Shown in pieces: positions 10,170 through 18,076 of a stretch of 45,469 nucleotides of DNA. The position numbers and the translations under genes were made by a program. The notes beneath the pieces were generated by a model that was not told the DNA's origin, did no database searches, and saw nothing but the letters and a program-made list of their open reading frames with translations. Numbering within the stretch: the first letter of the stretch is position 1; every line of letters starts with the position of its first letter. Source of the stretch: Pedosphaera sp. (GTDB lineage Bacteria > Verrucomicrobiota > Verrucomicrobiia > Limisphaerales > SIBH01); assembly GCA_031414955.1 (NCBI GenBank), contig JANOQV010000003.1, forward strand, positions 1-45,469, in the 5' to 3' direction.

Positions 10170-11216
10170 ATGGACGCCCAATGGAACGCGAATCATTCAA
10201 CCTCGCTGCCGATCGATGCCCATGTGCATATCGTGGGCAACGGCCTGCGCGGCAGCGGGTGCTGGATGAAGATCGGGATGTGGCACCGCCCGCTCGCAGC
10301 CTTCATGCTGCGGCACATTGGCGTCGGGGTCAGCACGAGCGCGGCGGAATTCGACGAGGCTTACGCAAATCACCTGGCGAAGCTGGTGCGGGAATCGTCC
10401 TTGGGTGCGGCCGTAATTCTAGCCCAAGATGAGGTGTATGACGTTCACGGGCGCAAGCTGGAGTTCGGATCGTTCCATGTGCCGAACGATTATGTTTTGC
10501 AACTGGCGCACGAACACCCGGAGTTTCTGCCCGCCGTTTCCATCCATCCCGCCCGGGCCGACGCGTTGGATGAACTGGAACGTTGCCTCGAAGCGGGCGC
10601 GGTCATGCTGAAACTGCTGCCCAACTGCCACAATGTTGATGGCCACGATGTGCGCTACAAAAAGTTCTGGGAGCGAATGGCGGCGGCGAAACTGCCGCTC
10701 CTGGCTCATACCGGGGGCGAACACACGGTGCCGGTGTTTGACAAGAAACTTTCCGACCCGCGAACCCTGCGGCTGCCGCTGGAGTGCGGCGTCACGGTCA
10801 TCGCGGCGCATTGCGCGACCAAGAGTGGTCTGGGCGACCCGGAATACTTTCATGTCCTGGGCGAAATGTTCTCCCGGCATCCGAATCTTTACGGAGATAC
10901 CAGCGCGTTTAACGTGCCGATTCGCGGGCGCCATGTGCGCGCCTGCCTGGTCGAACCGTTCGCCTCGCGGTTGGTGCATGGCAGTGATTATCCAGTGCCG
11001 GTGTTCGGACACTGGGCGTGGATGCAGCGGTTCGTCGATTGGGCGCAATTCCGTCGTTGCGAGCGCATCCCGAACGTGCTGGAGAAGGACTATCAATTGA
11101 AGGTCGCGATGGGCTTTCCCGCCGGGCATTTCACGAGGATTGACTCTTTACTGCGGCCTTCACCGGCTCTGGAACGCATTCGTACAAAAAAACCGGACCC
11201 GGCAGTCAGGGGATGA
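10170..11216 (+). CDS. Amidohydrolase family (amidohydrolase_2) protein
   Basis: IDAHVH metal motif, 'LLAHTGGE', 'IAAH', 'HGSDYP'. Confidence 0.85.
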   Translation: MDAQWNANHSTSLPIDAHVHIVGNGLRGSGCWMKIGMWHRPLAAFMLRHIGVGVSTSAAEFDEAYANHLAKLVRESSLGAAVILAQDEVYDVHGRKLEFGSFHVPNDYVLQLAHEHPEFLPAVSIHPARADALDELERCLEAGAVMLKLLPNCHNVDGHDVRYKKFWERMAAAKLPLLAHTGGEHTVPVFDKKLSDPRTLRLPLECGVTVIAAHCATKSGLGDPEYFHVLGEMFSRHPNLYGDTSAFNVPIRGRHVRACLVEPFASRLVHGSDYPVPVFGHWAWMQRFVDWAQFRRCERIPNVLEKDYQLKVAMGFPAGHFTRIDSLLRPSPALERIRTKKPDPAVRG

Positions 11217-11230
11217 CCGTCCGGGTCCGG
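11186..11230 (-). terminator. Intrinsic terminator on the minus strand
   Basis: ccggacccgg (11193-11202) pairs with ccgggtccgg (11221-11230), with an inner gtca/tgac pair, followed by 7 U on the minus strand. Confidence 0.75.
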
Positions 11231-11370
11231 GGAATTTCGATTTAATACAAGTAGGACTAGGTGGTAATCCGGTCTGGCTCTGTATTTGAAAGCCGAACCG
11301 AAATCTGTTTAGCGACTCTCTTCAAAGAACAATTTTCCAGTCGCTCTGAAAATCTGATGCCCTAATCCGC
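11186..11370 (-). ncRNA. Candidate structured small RNA, family unassigned
   Basis: TTGACA-17-TTCACT promoter upstream, three nested stems, own terminator, no credible ORF. Confidence 0.5.
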
Positions 11371-11374
11371 GCGT

Positions 11375-11403
11375 AGTGAACCATTGGGCCGCAGGGATGT
11401 CAA
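11375..11403 (-). promoter_or_regulatory. Sigma-70-type promoter for the candidate sRNA
   Basis: Perfect -35 TTGACA (11403-11398), 17-bp spacer, TGn-extended but imperfect -10 TTCACT (11380-11375). Confidence 0.5.
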
Positions 11404-11459
11404 TAGCCCCGTTACGTATCCCACGCCTCAACCCGGCGCGTTGAGGACAGCGGCGGCGC

Positions 11460-11700
11460 CCTACCCGTCGTTGTCGGGCTTGGAAGGCCGTTCCCTTTCG
11501 CGACGGGTTCGATACCGCCGCTTCCGGTAGCCCTACCATTGGTCGCGGGGTCCATACCGCCGCTCATGGTAGCCATACCGCGCCGTTTGGGATGCCATCC
11601 CATTGGCCGTGGTAGGCCTACCATTCCGGGCGGGACCCATACCGCTGCGCCCGGTAGGCCTACAATGGGGCGCGGGATGGCCCTTCCGTGACCGAAAACC
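11460..11700. repeat. Degenerate 21-bp tandem repeat array (about 9-11 units)
   Basis: Units such as gataccgccgcttccggtagc / cctaccattggtcgcggggtc / cataccgccgctcatggtagc / ccataccgctgcgcccggtag recur with a 21-bp period and one 1-bp slip near 11580. Confidence 0.65.
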
Positions 11701-11867
11701 CCTGATTTTGGCCGAAAACGGCCTCCCGCAGGGCAAAACTGGCCTCCCGGCAGCCGAAGGTGGTCATTTTGGGCCACCCACCCGCCGGGCGACAACCTGG
11801 GTAGCCCTGGTCGCGCTGCGACTGCTCCGCCCGCATCCAGCGGACGGTCCGGAAGGTCCATCGCCGT

Positions 11868-11934
11868 CTCCTCTCCCGTCCTTCGGACACCCTCTCCTCC
11901 ACCCCGAGTGGCGGAGAGTGACGTGGAGAGGAGG
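11868..11934. repeat. REP-like 'cctctcc…ggagagg' hairpin element
   Basis: ctcctctccc…caccctctcctcc…ggagagtg…ggagaggag; same family as 13809-13841. Confidence 0.55.
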
Positions 11935-11948
11935 CGGCGAGGCGAGTC

Positions 11949-12020
11949 GTGACCTATCTGGACACCGGCTGCCTCGTCAAACTTTACTACCCGGAGCCGG
12001 ACAGTCCCCAAGTCATCGCG
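11949..12020 (+). pseudogene. vapC: Truncated VapC/PIN toxin (5' fragment)
   Basis: GTG-start frame MTYLDTGCLVKLYYPEPDSPQVIA matches the PIN N-terminus (YLDTS.LVKLY..E..S). It then runs into a palindromic repeat and stops at 12128. The preceding 'cga ggc gag tcg tga' looks like an antitoxin end with a GTGA overlap. Confidence 0.7.
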
Positions 12021-12041
12021 CCGCAGAGTTGGGATTTTTTT

Positions 12042-12272
12042 ATCCCAACGGGATTCCGTCCCTCAGCCCAAGGGTTGCGAGGCACGAGCTACCCTTGGAA
12101 ACGGCCCGCGATTTTTTCGCAACCCTGAAGGGGTTGCAGCCCACCGGACACGGACGCGCCTGACCGAAGGCTGCAACCCTTTCAGGGTTGAGGAACTTTT
12201 CGGAACGCAACCCAGGGTAGCTCGCCGGGCCTCGCAACCCTTGGGCTGAGGGATGCAACACCTTTGGTGTTG
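12042..12272. repeat. Large palindromic REP/REPIN-like element (about 230 bp)
   Basis: Nested arms: tccctcagcccaagggttgcgaggc / gcctcgcaacccttgggctgaggga; cgagctaccct / agggtagctcg; caaccctgaaggggttgcagcc / ggctgcaaccctttcagggttg. Confidence 0.85.
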
Positions 12273-12296
12273 AGCCGCACGCCGCGGCGGCGGAGC

Positions 12297-12500
12297 GCAG
12301 CCCGTGAGGAGTTCGCCAGGCGCGCGACGGCGAGCCGGAAGTTCGTTGGCCGGCCCCGAACTACACCGGTCCGATTTGCCAGCATCACGAATACGAGCTG
12401 GGCGATAACGACTCGATGCGCGCGCACTTCAAAAAAACCTGGCCACGCTGCGGGAATGGTCGAAGGGGGCTGACCACGGGGAAGTCGCGCGACGGGGGCA
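12297..12500 (+). repeat. Gene-tail direct repeat, copy 1 (3' end of a probable sugar-phosphate isomerase/epimerase; frameshifted)
   Basis: Reads NYTGPICQHHEYELGDNDSMRAHFKK-(1-nt deletion)-DLATLREW…TGA at 12471-12473; aligns to copies 2 and 3. Confidence 0.85.
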
Positions 12501-12518
12501 CTCGAAGGAGTCGAGTGC

Positions 12519-12547
12519 TTGCCAGTGCAGGGCGTGTACCCTAGTTT
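12519..12547 (+). promoter_or_regulatory. Promoter of TA module 1 (leaderless-type)
   Basis: TTGCCA-17-TAGTTT, 6 nt before ATG 12554; no Shine-Dalgarno. Confidence 0.55.
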
Positions 12548-12553
12548 CGCCCC

Positions 12554-12757
12554 ATGACAACGACCGTGGATGCGATCTACGAAAACGGCAAACTCCTGTT
12601 GCCGCGCCCGCTGTCCCTACCGGAAAACTCCCACGTCCGCGTGACCATCGAATCCGATTCAGAGCGTGAGGCGTGGCTGAAGCTCTCCGAGGAATCGCTC
12701 CACAAGGTCTGGGACAACGACGCGGATGATGTCTTCAGTGCACTGCTCAAGAAATGA
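12554..12757 (+). CDS. Antitoxin, DUF104/AF2212-like family
   Basis: 'TVDAIYENGKLLLPRPLSLPENSHVRVTI' is the typical N-terminus; acidic tail 'WDNDADDVF'; overlaps the toxin gene. Confidence 0.8.
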   Translation: MTTTVDAIYENGKLLLPRPLSLPENSHVRVTIESDSEREAWLKLSEESLHKVWDNDADDVFSALLKK

Positions 12758-13049
12758 GGTCGTGCTCCTGCCGATTCCGTTCACGGATTTGAACAGCCGC
12801 AAGGTTCGCCCCGCCGTCGTCATCGGGCGCAATGGTGCCGACCTTTTCCTCGTGCCCATCTCGTCGGTTCTGGCCAACACGGATTTCCCGCTCCAGGACT
12901 GGCGTGCGGCGGTCTTGAACGTCCCTTGCGGAATCAAATCGCAAGTCGCCACCGTCGAGGAAAGGTTGGTCGTGAAATCCGTCGGCTTCCTGGCTGCGGC
13001 TGACTGTCAGACGTTAGACGCTCGCTTACGAACCTGGCTGCAACTCTGA
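12738..13049 (+). CDS. mazF: PemK/MazF family toxin (endoribonuclease)
   Basis: 'EVVLLPIPFTD…KVRPAVVI…LVPISS' PemK signature; probable GTG start at 12738. Confidence 0.85.
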   Translation: MHCSRNEVVLLPIPFTDLNSRKVRPAVVIGRNGADLFLVPISSVLANTDFPLQDWRAAVLNVPCGIKSQVATVEERLVVKSVGFLAAADCQTLDARLRTWLQL

Positions 13050-13091
13050 TGCGGCCCGGCGTGACACGGCGAGGAGCACACGCGCCCCAAG

Positions 13092-13231
13092 CACCGGCGC
13101 GATTTGCCAGCACCACGAATACGAGCTGGGCGAGAACGACGCCAGGCGTGCGCACTTTAAAAATGACCTGGCCATGCTGCGGGAATGGCTGAACGGGGGC
13201 TGACCACGGGGAGTTCGCGGGACGGGCGGCA
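13092..13231 (+). repeat. Gene-tail direct repeat, copy 2
   Basis: In-frame TGAICQHHEYELGENDARRAHFKNDLAMLREWLNGG-TGA (13093-13203), plus about 28 bp after the stop shared with copy 1. Confidence 0.85.
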
Positions 13232-13270
13232 GCGTGGCGGGTTTAACAGCGTGGCGCTCGTGAATTTGCA

Positions 13271-13299
13271 TTGGCAAATACGGCCAGGGCGCCCAAATT
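13271..13299 (+). promoter_or_regulatory. Promoter of TA module 2 (leaderless-type)
   Basis: TTGGCA-17-CAAATT, 6 nt before ATG 13306. Confidence 0.5.
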
Positions 13300-13305
13300 C
13301 CCCGC

Positions 13306-13518
13306 ATGAGTCCGAGCTTTGAAACTTTGGTTGAGGAAGTGCGAACCCGCTCCGTTGAAGAGAAGGAGGAACTGAAATTCCTGCTCGAACGCGCGCTCAT
13401 CGAAGAGCGCCGCCGTGAAATCCGCACCAACCACCGCCGCAGCCGGGACGAGGTGAAGCGCGGCAAGCTCAAGTTTTCCAGTTCCATCCCTGACCTAAAG
13501 AAGTCACTCGCCGCGTGA
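13306..13518 (+). CDS. Putative antitoxin
   Basis: 70-aa charged helical protein, C-terminal 'GKLKFSSSIPDLKKSL', TGATG coupling to the RelE-family toxin. Confidence 0.75.
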   Translation: MSPSFETLVEEVRTRSVEEKEELKFLLERALIEERRREIRTNHRRSRDEVKRGKLKFSSSIPDLKKSLAA

Positions 13519-13787
13519 TGACGCAGGTTGCCTTCAGTTCATCCTTCAAGCGCGCCTTCAAGAAACGCATCGAGGTCAGGAGGGATTTGGAACAGAAGTT
13601 CTGGCGACGGGTGGAAATCTTCACCGCCAACCCGCACGATCCCCGGCTCCGCACCCACAAGCTGTCGGGCGAACTGCGTGAGCAGTGGAGTTTCACCGTC
13701 GAGTACGACGTGCGCGTGGTGTTTTCGTTTCTGCCGAAGAGCCGCGCCGTGTTCGAGGACATTGGTAGCCATGACGAAGTTTATTAG
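13518..13787 (+). CDS. RelE/YafQ-family mRNA interferase toxin
   Basis: 'FSSSFKRAFKK…NPHDPRLRTHKLSG…WSFTVEYDVRVVF…DIGSHDEVY'. Confidence 0.9.
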   Translation: MTQVAFSSSFKRAFKKRIEVRRDLEQKFWRRVEIFTANPHDPRLRTHKLSGELREQWSFTVEYDVRVVFSFLPKSRAVFEDIGSHDEVY

Positions 13788-13808
13788 CGCGGGTGCCGCC
13801 GCCCGATT

Positions 13809-13841
13809 CCCTCTCCTTGCGAGGCACGAGTGAGGAGAGGG
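13809..13841. repeat. REP-like hairpin
   Basis: ccctctcct…aggagaggg; its loop (ttgcgaggcacgag) also occurs in the element at 12042-12272. Confidence 0.6.
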
Positions 13842-13853
13842 CCAGGGAGACGA

Positions 13854-14032
13854 GCAGCCCATGAGGTGTTCGCCAGGCGCGCGGCTGCGAGACGGAAGTT
13901 CGTTCGCCAGCCACGAACTACACCGGCGCGATTTGCCAGCATCACGAATACGAGCTGGGCGAGAACGACGCCAGGCGCGCGCACTTCAAAAGAGACCTGG
14001 CCACGCTGCGGGAATGGCTGAACGGGGTCTGA
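13854..14032 (+). repeat. Gene-tail direct repeat, copy 3
   Basis: gcagcccatgaggtgttcgccaggcgcgcg… aligns with copy 1; reads NYTGAICQHHEYELGENDARRAHFKRDLATLREWLNGV-TGA (stop 14030-14032). Confidence 0.85.
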
Positions 14033-14103
14033 CAGGGTCGCCCTCAATAAACTTTCCTGCTCGCCCTGTCTTCGAACGGCTGTTAATTCCAAACGCGAGT
14101 CGA

Positions 14104-16563
14104 ATGGCGAAAAACTTTTCCAGCTTCAGCAAAGCGCTGCTCAAAGCGAAGACCGAAGAAGAAGTCAAGCATGCCTACGCCGAGCACTTCGGCTTGGATT
14201 ATGATACGGAGTTTCATCACGACCTTTATTCGCCGGAAATTTTTTTTGAATTCAAATCCTCCCGCAGCTTGCAGAAGCGGGACGCGCGCGCCGCTGTTCT
14301 GGCCCAGGTGATTTACTACGTCCGTCGGTTGCGCCTCGGCTATGCGGACAAAGTTGTTCCGCCGGTGCTTTGTGTGGCGGATTCACGGCAGGCGTTTTTC
14401 ACCGAAACAAAGAAGTGGCAGAAGTTTTTTAACAACGAGAGCAGGTATGACTGGGAACTCGCACCCAGCCAACCCGACGAGAAACTGGTCTCCGATCTCA
14501 CCGCATTCGCCGAGACCAATGCCATCAAGGTTTTTGATGTTCTTGAGGAAGCTGAGTATGAACTGTTCAGCCAGAGCCTGACGCACCATCGCGCGACTCA
14601 GACCGAGTTTGATTTCCGTGTCAAAAAGCTAATCACCGAGGAAAATTTCGAGGAGGTTTTTGATTATTGGAACCAGTGCTTCGGTGACTCCGTGCGCAAT
14701 GGGACCAAGTCTTCCCGCTATTTTCTGTGCGACATCCAGCAGGACCGTTCGGAGTACGACAGAAAGGAGAACAAGGTCGTCTTTCTCGTCGGGCCGGAAG
14801 AACGCCGGGCGAAAAAAATTCTGCCGAAAGAATACGAATGGTTCTGGTCGAACTACGAAAAAGTCACCGACCCCGCCACGGTCAGGAACATTCTGGCGAA
14901 GGTGGACCGGCTGACCGACGAACCCATCCGCCGGTTCACCGGGGAGTTCTTTACGCCCGTGGCCTTCGCGCGTAAGGCGCACAGTTACCTGGAGCGGGTC
15001 ATCGGGCCGAAGTGGTGGACGAAAAATTACCGCCTGTGGGACATGGCCGCAGGCACGGGGAACCTGGAGTGGTTTCTTCCGGCAGACGCCTATCCGAGCA
15101 TCTATCTCTCGTCGCTCCACCACGAGGACGTGCAGCACTGCAAGCGCGTGTTCCCTGGCGCGACGGTTTTTCAATACGACTATCTCAACGATGACGTAGA
15201 GAGTGTTTTTGACGACCAGTCACTTTTTGACCGACAACGCAAACGCCCGGACAACCTCCTGCGCGACCTGATGAACCCGGACATCAAGTGGATCATCTTC
15301 ATCAACCCGCCCTTCGCCACCTCGCAAAAGGCGGGCTACTCCGGCGAGAGCAAGAAGAGCGTGAGCGACACGAAGATTCGTCCGCTCATGCACGACCAGG
15401 GGCTGGGCGAAGTCTCGCGGGAACTGTTCGCACAGTTCCTGTTCCGTATCCGGCAGGAGTTCGCCGACAAACAGGCGCATCTCGGGCTTTTTTCCACGCT
15501 CAAATACGTCAACTCGAACAATGACCAGAAGTTTCGCGACCAAGTGTTCCAGTTCACCTTCAAGGATGGCTTCGTGTTTTCATCCGCAAATTTTTCTGGC
15601 ACGCAGGCGTCGAATCCGTTCCCAGTCGGCTTTCTCGTCTGGGATTTGGCGAAACTGAAAAAGCTCGAAGCACAAAAGCTGGAAGTGACCGTGCTGGACG
15701 ACGACACGAGCAAGATTGGACGCAAACTGATCGTGTCCGAACATCGCGACCGTTTCTTGAGCAAGTGGATTGACCGGGTGCCGGCCACGGAAGTTTTTCC
15801 GCCGTTGGGTGGCGCCATTTCCGTCAAAGCTGGCAATGAAGATGTCCGCGACCGCGTGGCCAAAGATTTTCTGGCCTCGCTCATGTGCAAGGGCAACGAC
15901 GTGCAGAACTACAACAACGTGGCGTTGCTCTCGGGGCCGTATGTCAGCGCGGGCGCGTTGTCTATCGTGCCGGAGAACTTTGACCGGGCGGTGATCGTCC
16001 ACGCGGTGCGAAAAAACGTCCGCAAGAGCTGGATCAATGACCGCGACCAATTCCTCCAGCCGGAAGGAAAGCCCGGGGTGGAGTTTGTCCGCCGGTGCGC
16101 GGTGTGGAGCTTGTTCGCGGATTCCAACCAGACGGCCTCGCTGCGGAACGTGGCTTACAAGGGAAAGATTTTTCAGATCACGAATCAATTTTTCCCGTTC
16201 AAGGTTGCGGCGGTCAAGAAGTGGGAGGTTTCTGATTCCGAGATCGCGCGCTCGTTCAAGGCCGACAGCGAAGATCGCTTCGTGACGAAGTGGCTGGATC
16301 AACAAAAACTGGAGGCCGACTGCGACGAGCTTTTGCAAACCGGCGGCGAAATTTACCGGGTCTTCTTCAAAAGTTTCAAGGAGTTGCCCACCGCAAAGTT
16401 CAAGGTGGAGCATTGGGACGCGGGCTGGTGGCAGGTGAAAAAATGTCTCGTCGAAGCCGGGCTGGAGGGTGAGCGGTTCAAACAGGTCGAGATTCTTAAA
16501 AGAGAAATCGGCTCGAAGATCAACAGCGAGGCAATGGATTTGAGAATCATCTCCGCTGGTTGA
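14104..16563 (+). CDS. Fused endonuclease-N6-adenine methyltransferase (Type IIG/IIL-like restriction-modification enzyme)
   Basis: N-terminal 'TEEEVK…DLY…IFFEFK' (PD-(D/E)xK-like), 'GEFFTP', SAM motif 'WDMAAGTGNL', catalytic 'INPPF'; more AT-rich than flanking core genes. Start at ATG 14104; the ORF-track extension covers the repeat. Confidence 0.75.
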   Translation: MAKNFSSFSKALLKAKTEEEVKHAYAEHFGLDYDTEFHHDLYSPEIFFEFKSSRSLQKRDARAAVLAQVIYYVRRLRLGYADKVVPPVLCVADSRQAFFTETKKWQKFFNNESRYDWELAPSQPDEKLVSDLTAFAETNAIKVFDVLEEAEYELFSQSLTHHRATQTEFDFRVKKLITEENFEEVFDYWNQCFGDSVRNGTKSSRYFLCDIQQDRSEYDRKENKVVFLVGPEERRAKKILPKEYEWFWSNYEKVTDPATVRNILAKVDRLTDEPIRRFTGEFFTPVAFARKAHSYLERVIGPKWWTKNYRLWDMAAGTGNLEWFLPADAYPSIYLSSLHHEDVQHCKRVFPGATVFQYDYLNDDVESVFDDQSLFDRQRKRPDNLLRDLMNPDIKWIIFINPPFATSQKAGYSGESKKSVSDTKIRPLMHDQGLGEVSRELFAQFLFRIRQEFADKQAHLGLFSTLKYVNSNNDQKFRDQVFQFTFKDGFVFSSANFSGTQASNPFPVGFLVWDLAKLKKLEAQKLEVTVLDDDTSKIGRKLIVSEHRDRFLSKWIDRVPATEVFPPLGGAISVKAGNEDVRDRVAKDFLASLMCKGNDVQNYNNVALLSGPYVSAGALSIVPENFDRAVIVHAVRKNVRKSWINDRDQFLQPEGKPGVEFVRRCAVWSLFADSNQTASLRNVAYKGKIFQITNQFFPFKVAAVKKWEVSDSEIARSFKADSEDRFVTKWLDQQKLEADCDELLQTGGEIYRVFFKSFKELPTAKFKVEHWDAGWWQVKKCLVEAGLEGERFKQVEILKREIGSKINSEAMDLRIISAG

Positions 16564-16570
16564 ATGGCAC

Positions 16571-17031
16571 CTCATCGCCAAAGTGGTGAAGGTGGATGCA
16601 GCCAATGACCTCGCGTTGCTCAAGGCAGAGGGCCGGTCTGCGGCGTTGCCGGTGGTGGCGAGCCCCGACCCTTGTCGGGGCTGGGGAGCACGGTGGCCAC
16701 GGTCGGTTTCCCCAACGCGGGTTTGCAAGGGTTCGCGCCCAAGCTGGCCCGGGGCGAAATCGCCGCGCTGTCCGGCGCGCAGGATGACGCGCGGTATTTT
16801 CAAATCAGCGTGCCGGTGCAGCCGAGCAATTCGGGCGGCGCGCTGGTGGACGAGCGCGGGGCCTTGCCGGAGAACGTGAACTAAGCGGTGAAGAGCAGCT
16901 TCCTGCTCAGCTTCCTCGAAGCCGTGCCAGAGGTTTCTGCGAAACTCAAGGACGCGAAGACGAAAGAGCGGAAGTTCGAGGACGTGGTGAAGTCCGCCGA
17001 GCAGTCGGCGGTGCTGGTGTTGGTGTATTGA
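16571..17031 (+). pseudogene. 3' fragment of a trypsin-like serine protease
   Basis: AKVVKVDAANDLALLK…(frameshift near 16670)…GFPNAGLQG…FQISVPVQPSNSGGALVDERG…ENVN-TAA-AVKSSFLL…AVLVLVY-TGA. It has no 5' half, one frameshift and one premature stop. Confidence 0.85.
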
Positions 17032-17045
17032 GGGGAGGGTTTTAG

Positions 17046-17117
17046 CCACGGATTACACGGATGGCACGGATGGGGAGAAAGAATTCCACCCGCCTTTCTT
17101 CATCCGTGTCATTCGTG
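17046..17117. repeat. 'cacggat' short-repeat palindromic element
   Basis: cacggattacacggatggcacggatg … catccgtgtcattcgtg. Confidence 0.7.
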
Positions 17118-17118
17118 A

Positions 17119-17256
17119 AAACTGGTAGAAGATCTCCTCGATCTCGCGCGGGTAAACATTGATGCCGTGGACCAGCAGCATGTCCTTCTTGCGGTCAGTG
17201 ATGAAGAAGCAGCCGTCGGTGTCGTGGTGCCCCACGTCGCCGCTCAGCAGCCAGCC
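17119..17256 (-). pseudogene. Internal fragment of an acyl-CoA synthetase (AMP-binding enzyme)
   Basis: GWLLSGDVG…[27 protein letters not shown] matches the adenylate-forming enzyme hinge motifs; only about 46 codons remain. Confidence 0.8.
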
Positions 17257-17362
17257 GTAAGCCGGACAATACTCGGCGTTCCTTGGCGCCTAAAGCCCGG
17301 TTCCACTTTGGGGGCGACCAAGATTTGACGCAGCCTCGGCTCCTTCCTTACGTTCCTGACGC

Positions 17363-18076
17363 ATGATTATTGCCCCTTCCCTGCTGGCTGCGAATTTCGG
17401 ACGCTGCGCCTCCGAGGCGAAGCGCGTCGAGACCTCCGGCGCGGAGTGGCTGCATCTCGACATCATGGACGGCCACTTCGTGCCGAACATTTCCTTCGGG
17501 CCGGAGGTCGTGCGCACCTTGCGCCCGGTGGCCCGCAAACTGGAGTTCGACGTCCATCTGATGTGCTCGAAGCCGGAGATTTTGCTCGAGCCCTTCGCCA
17601 AGGCCGGCGCGGATCGCATCACCATTCACGCTGAGTTGGGTGTGGCGGTGAGTGACCTGATCTGGAAAATCAGAAAGCTGGGCAAGAAGGTCGGCCTGGC
17701 CATCAATCCGCCCACGCAAATCGGGCTGGTGGAGCCGTTCCTCAAGCAAGTTGATCTGGTGCTGATCATGACGGTGAATCCTGGTTTCGGCGGGCAGCCG
17801 TTCATCCATGAGGCTCTGCCCAAGATTCAGCAGGTCGCCGAGTGGCGGCGCGAATTGAACCTGCACTACCGCATTGAGGTGGACGGCGGGATTAATTTCC
17901 AGACGGCGGTGGAATGCGCGCGAGCGGGTGCGGACACGTTTGTGAGCGGCACCGGACTGTTCGGGCGGCCCAACCTCAAGACGGCCGTGGAGAAAATGCG
18001 CCGCCTCGTGACGGCGGCCGCGCCGTCCGGACACTTCAAGTTCGAATCCCCCATCGAGGCCGCGATCACGCGCTGA
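17363..18076 (+). CDS. rpe: Ribulose-phosphate 3-epimerase
   Basis: IAPSLL, HLDIMDGHFVPNISFG, DVHLM, MTVNPGFGGQ, IEVDGGIN. Confidence 0.96.
   Translation: MIIAPSLLAANFGRCASEAKRVETSGAEWLHLDIMDGHFVPNISFGPEVVRTLRPVARKLEFDVHLMCSKPEILLEPFAKAGADRITIHAELGVAVSDLIWKIRKLGKKVGLAINPPTQIGLVEPFLKQVDLVLIMTVNPGFGGQPFIHEALPKIQQVAEWRRELNLHYRIEVDGGINFQTAVECARAGADTFVSGTGLFGRPNLKTAVEKMRRLVTAAAPSGHFKFESPIEAAITR

What the first reader, a model, noticed from the sequence alone, without database searches (positions are those of the whole stretch)
11949..17031. Integrase-free toxin-antitoxin/defence cassette array delimited by duplicated gene 3' ends
Seen: three direct copies of one sequence (12297-12500, 13092-13231, 13854-14032; stops 730 and 829 bp apart) alternate with small, same-strand cargo: vapC remnant | R1 | DUF104-MazF | R2 | antitoxin-RelE/YafQ | R3 | fused RM gene | protease tail. 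The repeat is not attC-like or CRISPR-like. It translates to a protein C-terminus with its stop codon (YTG(P/A)ICQHHEYELG…HFKxDLATLREWLNG*), which I recognise by eye as the end of a xylose-isomerase-like TIM-barrel sugar-phosphate isomerase/epimerase. Neither the intact parent gene nor any recombinase is in the window. Established: integrative elements that insert into the 3' ends of protein-coding genes duplicate the gene tail, but they are normally multi-kb and carry an integrase. Inference: these are roughly 0.7-0.8 kb minimal cassettes (gene tail + promoter + TA) stacked in tandem, either by a recombinase acting in trans or by homologous recombination using the gene tail as a landing pad. 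That would be an integron-like capture system with coding-derived sites.
Basis: partly seen in the sequence, partly recalled or inferred. Interest (0 to 1): 0.85.

Follow-up and report, generated by a model that had tools for sequence, protein, structure and literature searches.

The report
Orphan gene tails bordering toxin-antitoxin cassettes
Three dead copies of the end of a sugar-metabolism gene separate small toxin-antitoxin modules in this bacterium; they look like scars of ordinary recombination that left their parent gene and now travel with swappable defence cassettes between several places in the genome, not like target sites of a dedicated integration enzyme.

Summary
The three repeats are real and are 3' ends of a xylose-isomerase-like gene. 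A metagenome contig (L103) shows the intact 306-aa parent, a ParDE pair, then a stranded tail copy; the same ParDE+tail unit (90% identical) sits parent-less on another contig of this genome. This genome holds ten tail copies on five contigs and no intact parent; each locus has a Sel1/trypsin gene or remnant 0.8-2.5 kb downstream. Each cargo (MazF pair, YafQ pair, RM-like gene, vapC) occurs separately at other gene ends in relatives, so the modules do move. The tails are not att sites: seven different 5' starts, no attC-like hairpin, mosaic sequences, and cassettes move without them. Fifteen other genes here have a stranded own tail downstream, and a second orphan tail (uxaA-like) behaves alike in three species. 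Best reading: one-sided homologous plus illegitimate recombination strands gene ends; stranded ends, palindromes and the trypsin module then serve as portable anchors among paralogous islands. Stranded tails are a known kind (long target duplication, HFIR), and this scan noted them before in other genomes; the dispersed, parent-less anchor network is the new part. No excision joint was seen. Interest moderate.

The parts
11939..12023 (+). End of an antitoxin gene and first 25 codons of a vapC (PIN) gene, truncated
   Evidence: 94% identical to intact antitoxin-vapC in G009, where that pair directly precedes the RM-like gene; the G009 protein hits PIN
12045..12267 (.). Dispersed inverted-repeat (REP/MITE-like) element
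   Evidence: 42-nt and 27-nt arms; 27 loci in G000, next to 3 of 12 Y1-transposase matches
12297..12343 (+). Non-coding leader of R1, a degenerate copy of the post-stop motif M; shared only with R3
12344..12496 (+). R1: last 132 nt of the TIM-barrel gene plus 23 nt past the stop; two 1-nt deletions
   Evidence: 88% to the L103 parent; alignment
12506..13049 (+). Cassette: upstream region, AF2212-like antitoxin (12554-12757), MazF/PemK toxin (12726-13049)
   Evidence: Pfam; the same block, 87%, lies behind an intact uxaA-like gene in G008 and 81% behind a clpX-like gene in G258 (gene names by eye except uxaA-like)
13092..13226 (+). R2: last 112 nt of the TIM-barrel gene plus motif M
13228..13787 (+). 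Cassette: upstream region, putative antitoxin (13306-13518), YafQ/RelE-like toxin (13515-13787)
   Evidence: the same block at other sites in G001 (86%), G003 (79%), G218 (72%); antitoxin part in G007
13796..13900 (+). Short palindrome (9-bp stem) plus degenerate-M leader of R3
   Evidence: The same palindrome precedes tail copies at C213 (2), C119 and L103; its folding is not beyond shuffles, z -0.94
13901..14033 (+). R3: last 132 nt of the TIM-barrel gene with stop
   Evidence: 91% to the L103 parent
14104..16563 (+). 819-aa RM-like protein (methyltransferase-like motifs by eye; function untested), 55% G+C
   Evidence: 76-84% DNA matches at other sites in at least 12 genomes of the order
16570..17032 (+). 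Broken 3' part of a Sel1-repeat/trypsin-like gene: the right-hand anchor shared by the island family
   Evidence: 92% to intact copies at C174, C213, C98; 85-94% DNA matches in several genus members
17042..17116 (.). REP-like palindrome closing the island
   Evidence: 11 BLASTN hits in G000
17118..17235 (-). Stray internal piece of an acyl-CoA-ligase-like gene (name by eye)
   Evidence: 96% over 98 nt to a long reading frame on C100

Best explanation
Step 1 (pattern shown, mechanism inferred): small self-contained TA/defence cassettes collect at 3' ends of ordinary genes. Incoming DNA from a relative recombines by homology inside the gene and is joined illegitimately at its other end to a point just before the resident stop, so the gene gets a new allelic end, the cassette follows it, and the old end is stranded behind the cassette. 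L103 is this state for the TIM-barrel gene. Step 2 (pattern shown, mechanism inferred): stranded tails stay attached to palindromes and cassettes and are carried to unlinked sites by recombination anchored on other shared blocks (the Sel1/trypsin module, TA genes, REPs), each time with a new left-hand break. Step 3 (inferred): tail, motif M, palindrome and trypsin module then act as short homology and microhomology anchors through which cargo is swapped among at least six paralogous islands. No dedicated recombinase is needed. TA addiction may keep the stacked cassettes from being lost by recombination between the direct repeats (inference).
For: Parent | ParDE | palindrome+tail in L103, and the same unit at 90% over 634 nt without parent at G000 C119. 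Seven 5' starts among ten copies: 525, 165 (x3), 132 (x2), 112, 96, 58, 37 nt before the end of the stop. R1 is nearer C213_b (7 differences) than R2 or R3; R3 is nearest C213_c; 24 of 36 site pairs are four-gamete incompatible. 6 of 6 loci with the tail or its post-stop piece have a Sel1/trypsin block 0.8-2.5 kb downstream, against 0.27% of genome positions and strands (loci not independent). 15 genes have a 3'-end copy downstream against 2 upstream; parent-versus-stranded differences are 42:21:126 at codon positions 1:2:3, so both ends were functional alleles. 10 of 12 such intervals scanned hold a TA- or methylase-family gene (ORFs picked by eye). A REP+uxaA-like tail with one shared junction is orphaned in G007, G009 (x2) and G000 (x2) with the parent elsewhere in each genome; G007 C154 has the same plan, TA/REP array, orphan tail, low-G+C cargo, trypsin. 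comEC and dprA families are present.
Against: No event was caught between two near-identical strains; no empty allele of this window locus was found. The palindrome+tail junction is identical in four copies and the REP+uxaA junction in five, which shows copying of a preformed module and would also fit transposase-assisted movement. 110-165 nt at ~90% identity is short for RecA-type exchange (general knowledge). PMC3240628 reports HFIR as 100- to 10^6-fold rarer than homologous recombination. comEC and dprA ring in 10 and 11 of 14 control genomes, so they do not show competence. Four-gamete conflicts can also come from repeated mutation. Microhomologies were judged by eye only. G000 is a 313-contig assembly with 5.84% contamination, so an intact parent may be unassembled and some loci may come from a co-binned strain.
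Confidence: 0.62

Rival explanations
1. REP-driven mobilisation: the palindromic elements beside the tails are moved by a Y1 (RAYT-like) transposase acting in trans and drag neighbouring DNA (gene tails, TA cassettes) with them; the tails are captured passengers.
For: 12 Y1_Tnp matches in G000, 3 of them within 600 nt of the element family found at 12045-12267. Fixed palindrome+tail and REP+uxaA-tail junctions recur at unlinked sites. REPs separate the TA units in G007 C154, G009 C58 and G001 C412.
Against: R2, C174, C119_a, C213_a and C215 copies have no such palindrome directly before them. Most gene-plus-stranded-tail cases printed show the cassette joined straight to the tail. Third-position bias points to allele replacement. 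No Y1 match lies on any of the six contigs.
Confidence: 0.17
2. Integron-like system: a recombinase in trans (IntI on C17 or XerC/D) uses the tail or the post-stop motif M as a site and stacks fixed cassettes.
For: G000 encodes an integron integrase above the TIGR02249 cut-off on C17. Motif M marks cassette borders: 8 of 12 pattern hits in G000 lie in these islands, and it occurs without TIM coding DNA in G001 (5) and G005 (1). Three cassettes begin within 10 nt of the end of M.
Against: No attC-like site in eight island loci (the heuristic also found none on C17, so its sensitivity is unproven). The repeats and M fold no better than shuffles (z +0.2 to +2.2). Seven 5' starts. M is in 3 of 401 genomes of the order while the cassettes are far more widespread. 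R3, C213_b and C215 lack M after the stop. No excision joint listed.
Confidence: 0.08
3. Local tandem duplication of one tail+cassette unit followed by cargo replacement and decay, or the eroded remains of integrative elements that once carried an integrase into the TIM gene.
For: R1 and R3 share a 51-nt leader found nowhere else in G000; C213_b and C213_c are an adjacent 315-nt direct repeat at 90%. Tail duplication is what site-specific integration into a gene end leaves (general knowledge).
Against: Adjacent copies are not closest relatives; the cargos are unrelated families found separately elsewhere; L103 shows a complete insert of about 0.76 kb with no integrase between parent and tail; starts vary.
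Confidence: 0.13

Closest known systems
Insertion with long target duplication (Furuta et al. 2010, PMC2853133; passages and Discussion read)
   Same: Defence genes under 20 kb between direct repeats over 30 bp of variable length, with no other mobile element.
   Different: There the repeats are near-identical (43-47 of 46-47 bp in the rows seen) and copy a site present once in the empty strain; here they are 86-94% alike, are coding tails, have left the parent locus, occur on five contigs, and the cargo is mostly TA.
Homology-facilitated illegitimate recombination, HFIR (PMC3240628; abstract and Introduction read)
   Same: One homologous anchor plus one illegitimate join gives insertion with deletion and variable breakpoints; about 1-kb inserts.
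   Different: Shown experimentally in naturally competent model species and in E. coli conjugation; not tested here, and the paper does not describe serial arrays or anchors that spread to new loci.
Integrons and CALINs
   Same: Tandem, mostly co-oriented small cargo rich in TA; an IntI gene exists elsewhere in the genome.
   Different: No attC-like site or hairpin; borders vary; cassettes keep their own conserved upstream regions.
Additive flexible genomic islands (PMC5217437; passages read)
   Same: Islands vary by addition or loss of cassettes and gather TA genes.
   Different: Described as sitting at equivalent positions and varying largely by site-directed recombination; these islands sit at different positions within one genome and between species.
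Integrative elements that enter 3' ends of protein-coding genes (recalled, e.g. e14 in icd)
   Same: Gene end replaced, old end stranded downstream.
   Different: No integrase in the insert and no fixed crossover point.

Membership tests
Xylose-isomerase-like TIM barrel (parent of the repeat) | PF01261 match of a full-length gene that ends in the repeat | tested here: met
   L103 306-aa ORF, E 1.5e-24; repeats 88-91% identical to its end; C174 fragment also hits PF01261 with one internal stop
Integron / CALIN | attC sites with core and inverse core and a bottom-strand hairpin | tested here: not met
   0 hits in 8 island loci with my heuristic (not IntegronFinder, no positive control); repeats fold no better than shuffles
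Integron / CALIN | IntI gene next to the array | tested here: not met
   The only IntI-type match is on C17; none of 8 tyrosine-recombinase matches lies on the six island contigs; C213 and C119 islands reach contig ends
Integron / CALIN | Excision as circles by IntI | not testable with these tools
   Contigs of four runs listed no R1-R2 or R2-R3 joint, but contigs drop rare forms and 31 joints were not shown
Site-specific integrative element in a gene end | One fixed crossover point, so all stranded tails start alike | tested here: not met
   7 starts among 10 copies
Site-specific integrative element in a gene end | Integrase or serine recombinase in the element | tested here: not met
   (0 resolvase matches); L103 insert holds only ParDE
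Insertion with long target duplication | Direct repeats over 30 bp, variable length, insert under 20 kb, no mobility gene | tested here: met
Insertion with long target duplication | Empty allele with one copy of the repeat and the same flanks | tested here: inconclusive
   L101 has the parent end with no cassette but other downstream DNA than L103; no empty allele of the window locus
Insertion with long target duplication | R and M genes inside the insert | tested here: inconclusive
   Between the repeats the cargo is TA; the RM-like gene follows R3 and its function is unproven
HFIR product | Allele replaced on the anchor side, variable break with loss of resident DNA on the other | tested here: met
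   Third-position bias 126 of 189; variable starts; vapC truncated relative to G009
HFIR product | 3-10 bp microhomology at the illegitimate join | tested here: inconclusive
   G+C-rich overlaps seen by eye at the M/YafQ-cassette join; no control
HFIR product | RecA dependence and DNA uptake | not testable with these tools
   comEC and dprA families present but common
REP / MITE | The repeat itself is palindromic or has terminal inverted repeats and is non-coding in origin | tested here: not met
   Coding origin; no stable fold

The most novel reading that the evidence does not exclude
This lineage runs an undescribed cassette-shuffling system in which a short non-coding junction motif (M) or the neighbouring palindromes are true recombination sites, served in trans by the genome's IntI or Y1 transposases, capturing host gene ends and feeding TA/defence cassettes into a family of dispersed platforms that end in a Sel1-trypsin gene: an integron analogue spread over many loci.
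Probability: 0.15. Interest if true: 0.8.

Novelty: new variant of a known kind. Interest (0 to 1): 0.47.

Why it matters
It gives a concrete, three-stage example (parent end without cassette, parent with cassette and stranded tail, same unit parent-less elsewhere) of how TA and defence genes can spread and stack with no integrase or transposase in cis. Islands of this kind are invisible to tools that look for att sites or mobility genes. The defined anchors make a long-open question testable: how small chromosomal TA modules move. If an enzyme in trans proved to act on the junction motif, it would be a new cassette system; on present evidence it is recombination scar tissue reused as anchors.

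Tried and rejected
attC heuristic: none in the islands, none on C17, 79 scattered hits genome-wide. Rfam on 10900-17500: two miRNA-family matches far below gathering score. Promoter scan 11150-14200: 0 sites, so 'own promoter' rests only on the conserved upstream block. Plasmid search with R3: no match. Tail pattern in genome contigs: 0; M pattern in viral contigs: 0; RM-like protein in viral contigs: 0. Stranded TIM tails in distant relatives: none in 15 loci with up to 5-kb flanks or 22 shorter loci. Single-sequence structure of the RM-like protein failed (pLDDT 35) and was not searched. The X6 joint 12335-16639 (side 21 nt) was rejected as too short; runs with a 0.10 share gave no empty allele. 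Gene order around the amidohydrolase is not kept in the genus, so no empty site could be defined. The synonymous count at the end was out of frame and is discarded; redone (14 of 35 changes synonymous, 21.6% expected, p 0.011, plus frameshifts): a weak inherited coding signal, so a functional tail peptide was rejected. The first fragment census was swamped by REPs in over-long ORF calls and was replaced (47 of 52 rows kept after a copy-number filter; some rows, e.g. C11, may be paralogues). Paper searches that found no description of parent-less dispersed tail anchors or Sel1-trypsin islands: (listings only). CRISPR rejected from repeat length and coding spacers.
Full report
1. Observation. 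The three direct copies are in the sequence at the stated places, 86-94% alike, with stops 730 and 829 bp apart. The cargo is as described, with qualifications: AF2212-like antitoxin and PemK/MazF toxin pass Pfam cut-offs, the YafQ-like toxin is just under, and its partner has no family. The 819-aa gene has no hit in Pfam, NCBIfam, PADLOC or PDB sequences; its nearest named ESM cluster is N6_Mtase/Eco57I, so 'RM' is a lead. R1 is frameshifted. A dispersed inverted-repeat element sits between the vapC stub and R1. Error-free contigs of run X2 and contigs of run X3 from a second study support the gene order.

2. The parent. The tail matches the end of single ~300-aa genes in 17 of 60 relatives. 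In G000 the longest piece is a 173-codon 3' part on C174 with an internal stop; no intact copy was found. A pattern scan of metagenomes returned three loci. L103 holds the intact 306-aa gene (PF01261), then a ParD/ParE pair, then a short palindrome and a second copy of the last 165 nt. L101 holds the gene end followed by a REP-like palindrome and an unrelated gene, with no cassette. L102 holds a tail at a contig end, uninformative for its 5' side. The ParDE+palindrome+tail unit of L103 is present at 90% over 634 nt on G000 C119, behind a short tail copy and with no parent.

3. A family of islands. G000 has ten coding-tail copies: C3 (3), C213 (3), C119 (2), C174, C215; C98 has only the post-stop piece. 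All six loci have different flanking genes and a Sel1/trypsin gene or remnant 0.8-2.5 kb downstream, where 0.27% of positions would (shared ancestry makes the loci non-independent). Between tail and trypsin module lies a different, lower-G+C cargo each time. The trypsin module is found at 77-94% DNA identity, often as truncated pieces behind unrelated cargo, in many genus members (11 of 13 family genomes have some match, several only short).

4. The tails are not att sites. They begin 525, 165 (three), 132 (two), 112, 96, 58 and 37 nt before the end of the stop. R1 differs from C213_b at 7 sites but from R2 and R3 at 12 and 11; R3 is closest to C213_c; 24 of 36 pairs of informative sites conflict. 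The repeats fold no better than shuffles and my attC heuristic found nothing in eight loci (no positive control). G000 does encode an integron integrase on C17, but none of the eight tyrosine-recombinase or twelve Y1 matches is on an island contig, and no resolvase was found. No R1-R2 or R2-R3 joint was among those listed for four runs (contigs drop rare forms).

5. The cargo is modular, and moves without this tail. In a search of 301 genomes of the order the MazF block from 12506, the YafQ block from 13228 and the RM-like gene were found separately. Of 15 such regions examined, none carried the TIM tail. The MazF block follows an intact uxaA-like gene in G008; the YafQ block lies between two stranded pieces of a moeB-like gene in G218 (name by eye); in G009 the RM-like gene directly follows the intact antitoxin-vapC pair whose stub opens the window's island. 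The palindrome+tail module has one junction in C213_b, C213_c, C119_b and L103 but follows ParDE, a DUF559 region or another tail; the R3 variant follows YafQ.

6. A general habit. Among 3138 called genes, 15 have a copy of their own 3' end downstream within 20 kb against 2 upstream, and 7 have a 5'-end copy upstream against 3 downstream. Several have two or three tails with different starts. Differences between gene end and stranded tail fall 42:21:126 on codon positions 1:2:3, so both were working alleles: replacement from a relative, not duplication and decay. Of 12 intervals whose ORFs I picked by eye and scanned, 10 hold a TA- or methylase-family gene. A second orphan family exists: a REP joined to the last ~60 nt around the stop of a uxaA-like gene, at G007 C154, twice at G009 C58 and twice at G000 C257, with the parent elsewhere in each genome. 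G007 C154 repeats the window's plan with these other anchors. The post-stop motif M also occurs without TIM coding DNA, at cassette and REP borders in G001 and G005, but in only 3 of 401 genomes of the order.

7. Mechanism. Shown: three states of the parent locus, variable left breaks, allele replacement, mosaic copies, separate occurrence of each cargo, shared right anchor. Inferred: one-sided homologous recombination with an illegitimate second join strands gene ends behind incoming cassettes; stranded ends, M, palindromes and the trypsin module then serve as anchors that carry and swap cargo among unlinked islands (0.62). Rivals: REP/Y1-driven capture (0.17), local duplication or eroded integrative elements (0.13), a recombinase in trans (0.08). 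The fixed palindrome+tail and REP+uxaA junctions are the strongest point against a purely homology-driven account. Whether the window's array was built in place or at the parent locus and then moved cannot be told.

8. What is known. [quoted passage not shown] PMC3240628 (abstract and Introduction read) describes HFIR: one homologous end, one illegitimate end, about 1-kb insertions with deletions, 3-10 bp microhomology. PMC5217437 (passages read) describes additive islands. Supplements were not read. Searches (listings only) gave no paper on parent-less, dispersed gene-tail anchors or Sel1-trypsin islands; the library lacks most subscription journals. Earlier notes of this scan report stranded tails in many other genomes, including serial ones; I took the HFIR and long-target-duplication leads from them and checked the papers. 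None matched this locus or its parent.

9. Verdict. Real feature, partly right interpretation. It works like a cassette platform but fails the membership tests for integrons and site-specific elements. New variant of a known kind; interest 0.47.

Noticed in passing
window 11180-11375: Non-coding block about 80% conserved behind the amidohydrolase gene in six genus members, ending on the minus strand in a hairpin and T run; no Rfam family. Candidate structured RNA.
   Followed up: partly
G000 C17:1217-2083 (L078): Integron integrase above the TIGR02249 cut-off, beside dnaN-like DNA (by eye), with an attI-like core and a low-G+C ORF on the other strand; a short palindrome is inserted in frame near its N-terminus.
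   Followed up: partly
window 17118-17235: Isolated internal piece, 96% identical to a long gene on C100, joined to a REP at the island's right edge.
   Followed up: partly
window 11440-11800: G+C-rich region of degenerate 21-nt-spaced repeats, single copy in G000; similar low-complexity tracts open the C213, C119 and C215 islands next to remnants of a repeated unknown gene.
   Followed up: partly
G000 C83:1-11169: lysS-like and thrS-like genes converge on a region with several stranded tails of both and at least three TA pairs (gene names by eye).
   Followed up: partly
L163 (G018 C308): At least five decayed copies of an unidentified ~170-nt repeat separate TA pairs, one of them the window's MazF pair; origin of the repeat not found.
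   Followed up: no
L152 (G007 C168): The RM-like gene is followed by a second, 557-codon 3' copy of itself at 82% identity.
   Followed up: no
window 14104-16563: Member of a large protein family with no common Pfam annotation (30 of 30 top ESM clusters unnamed) that moves among gene ends in this order; worth testing as a defence gene.
   Followed up: partly
   Followed up: no
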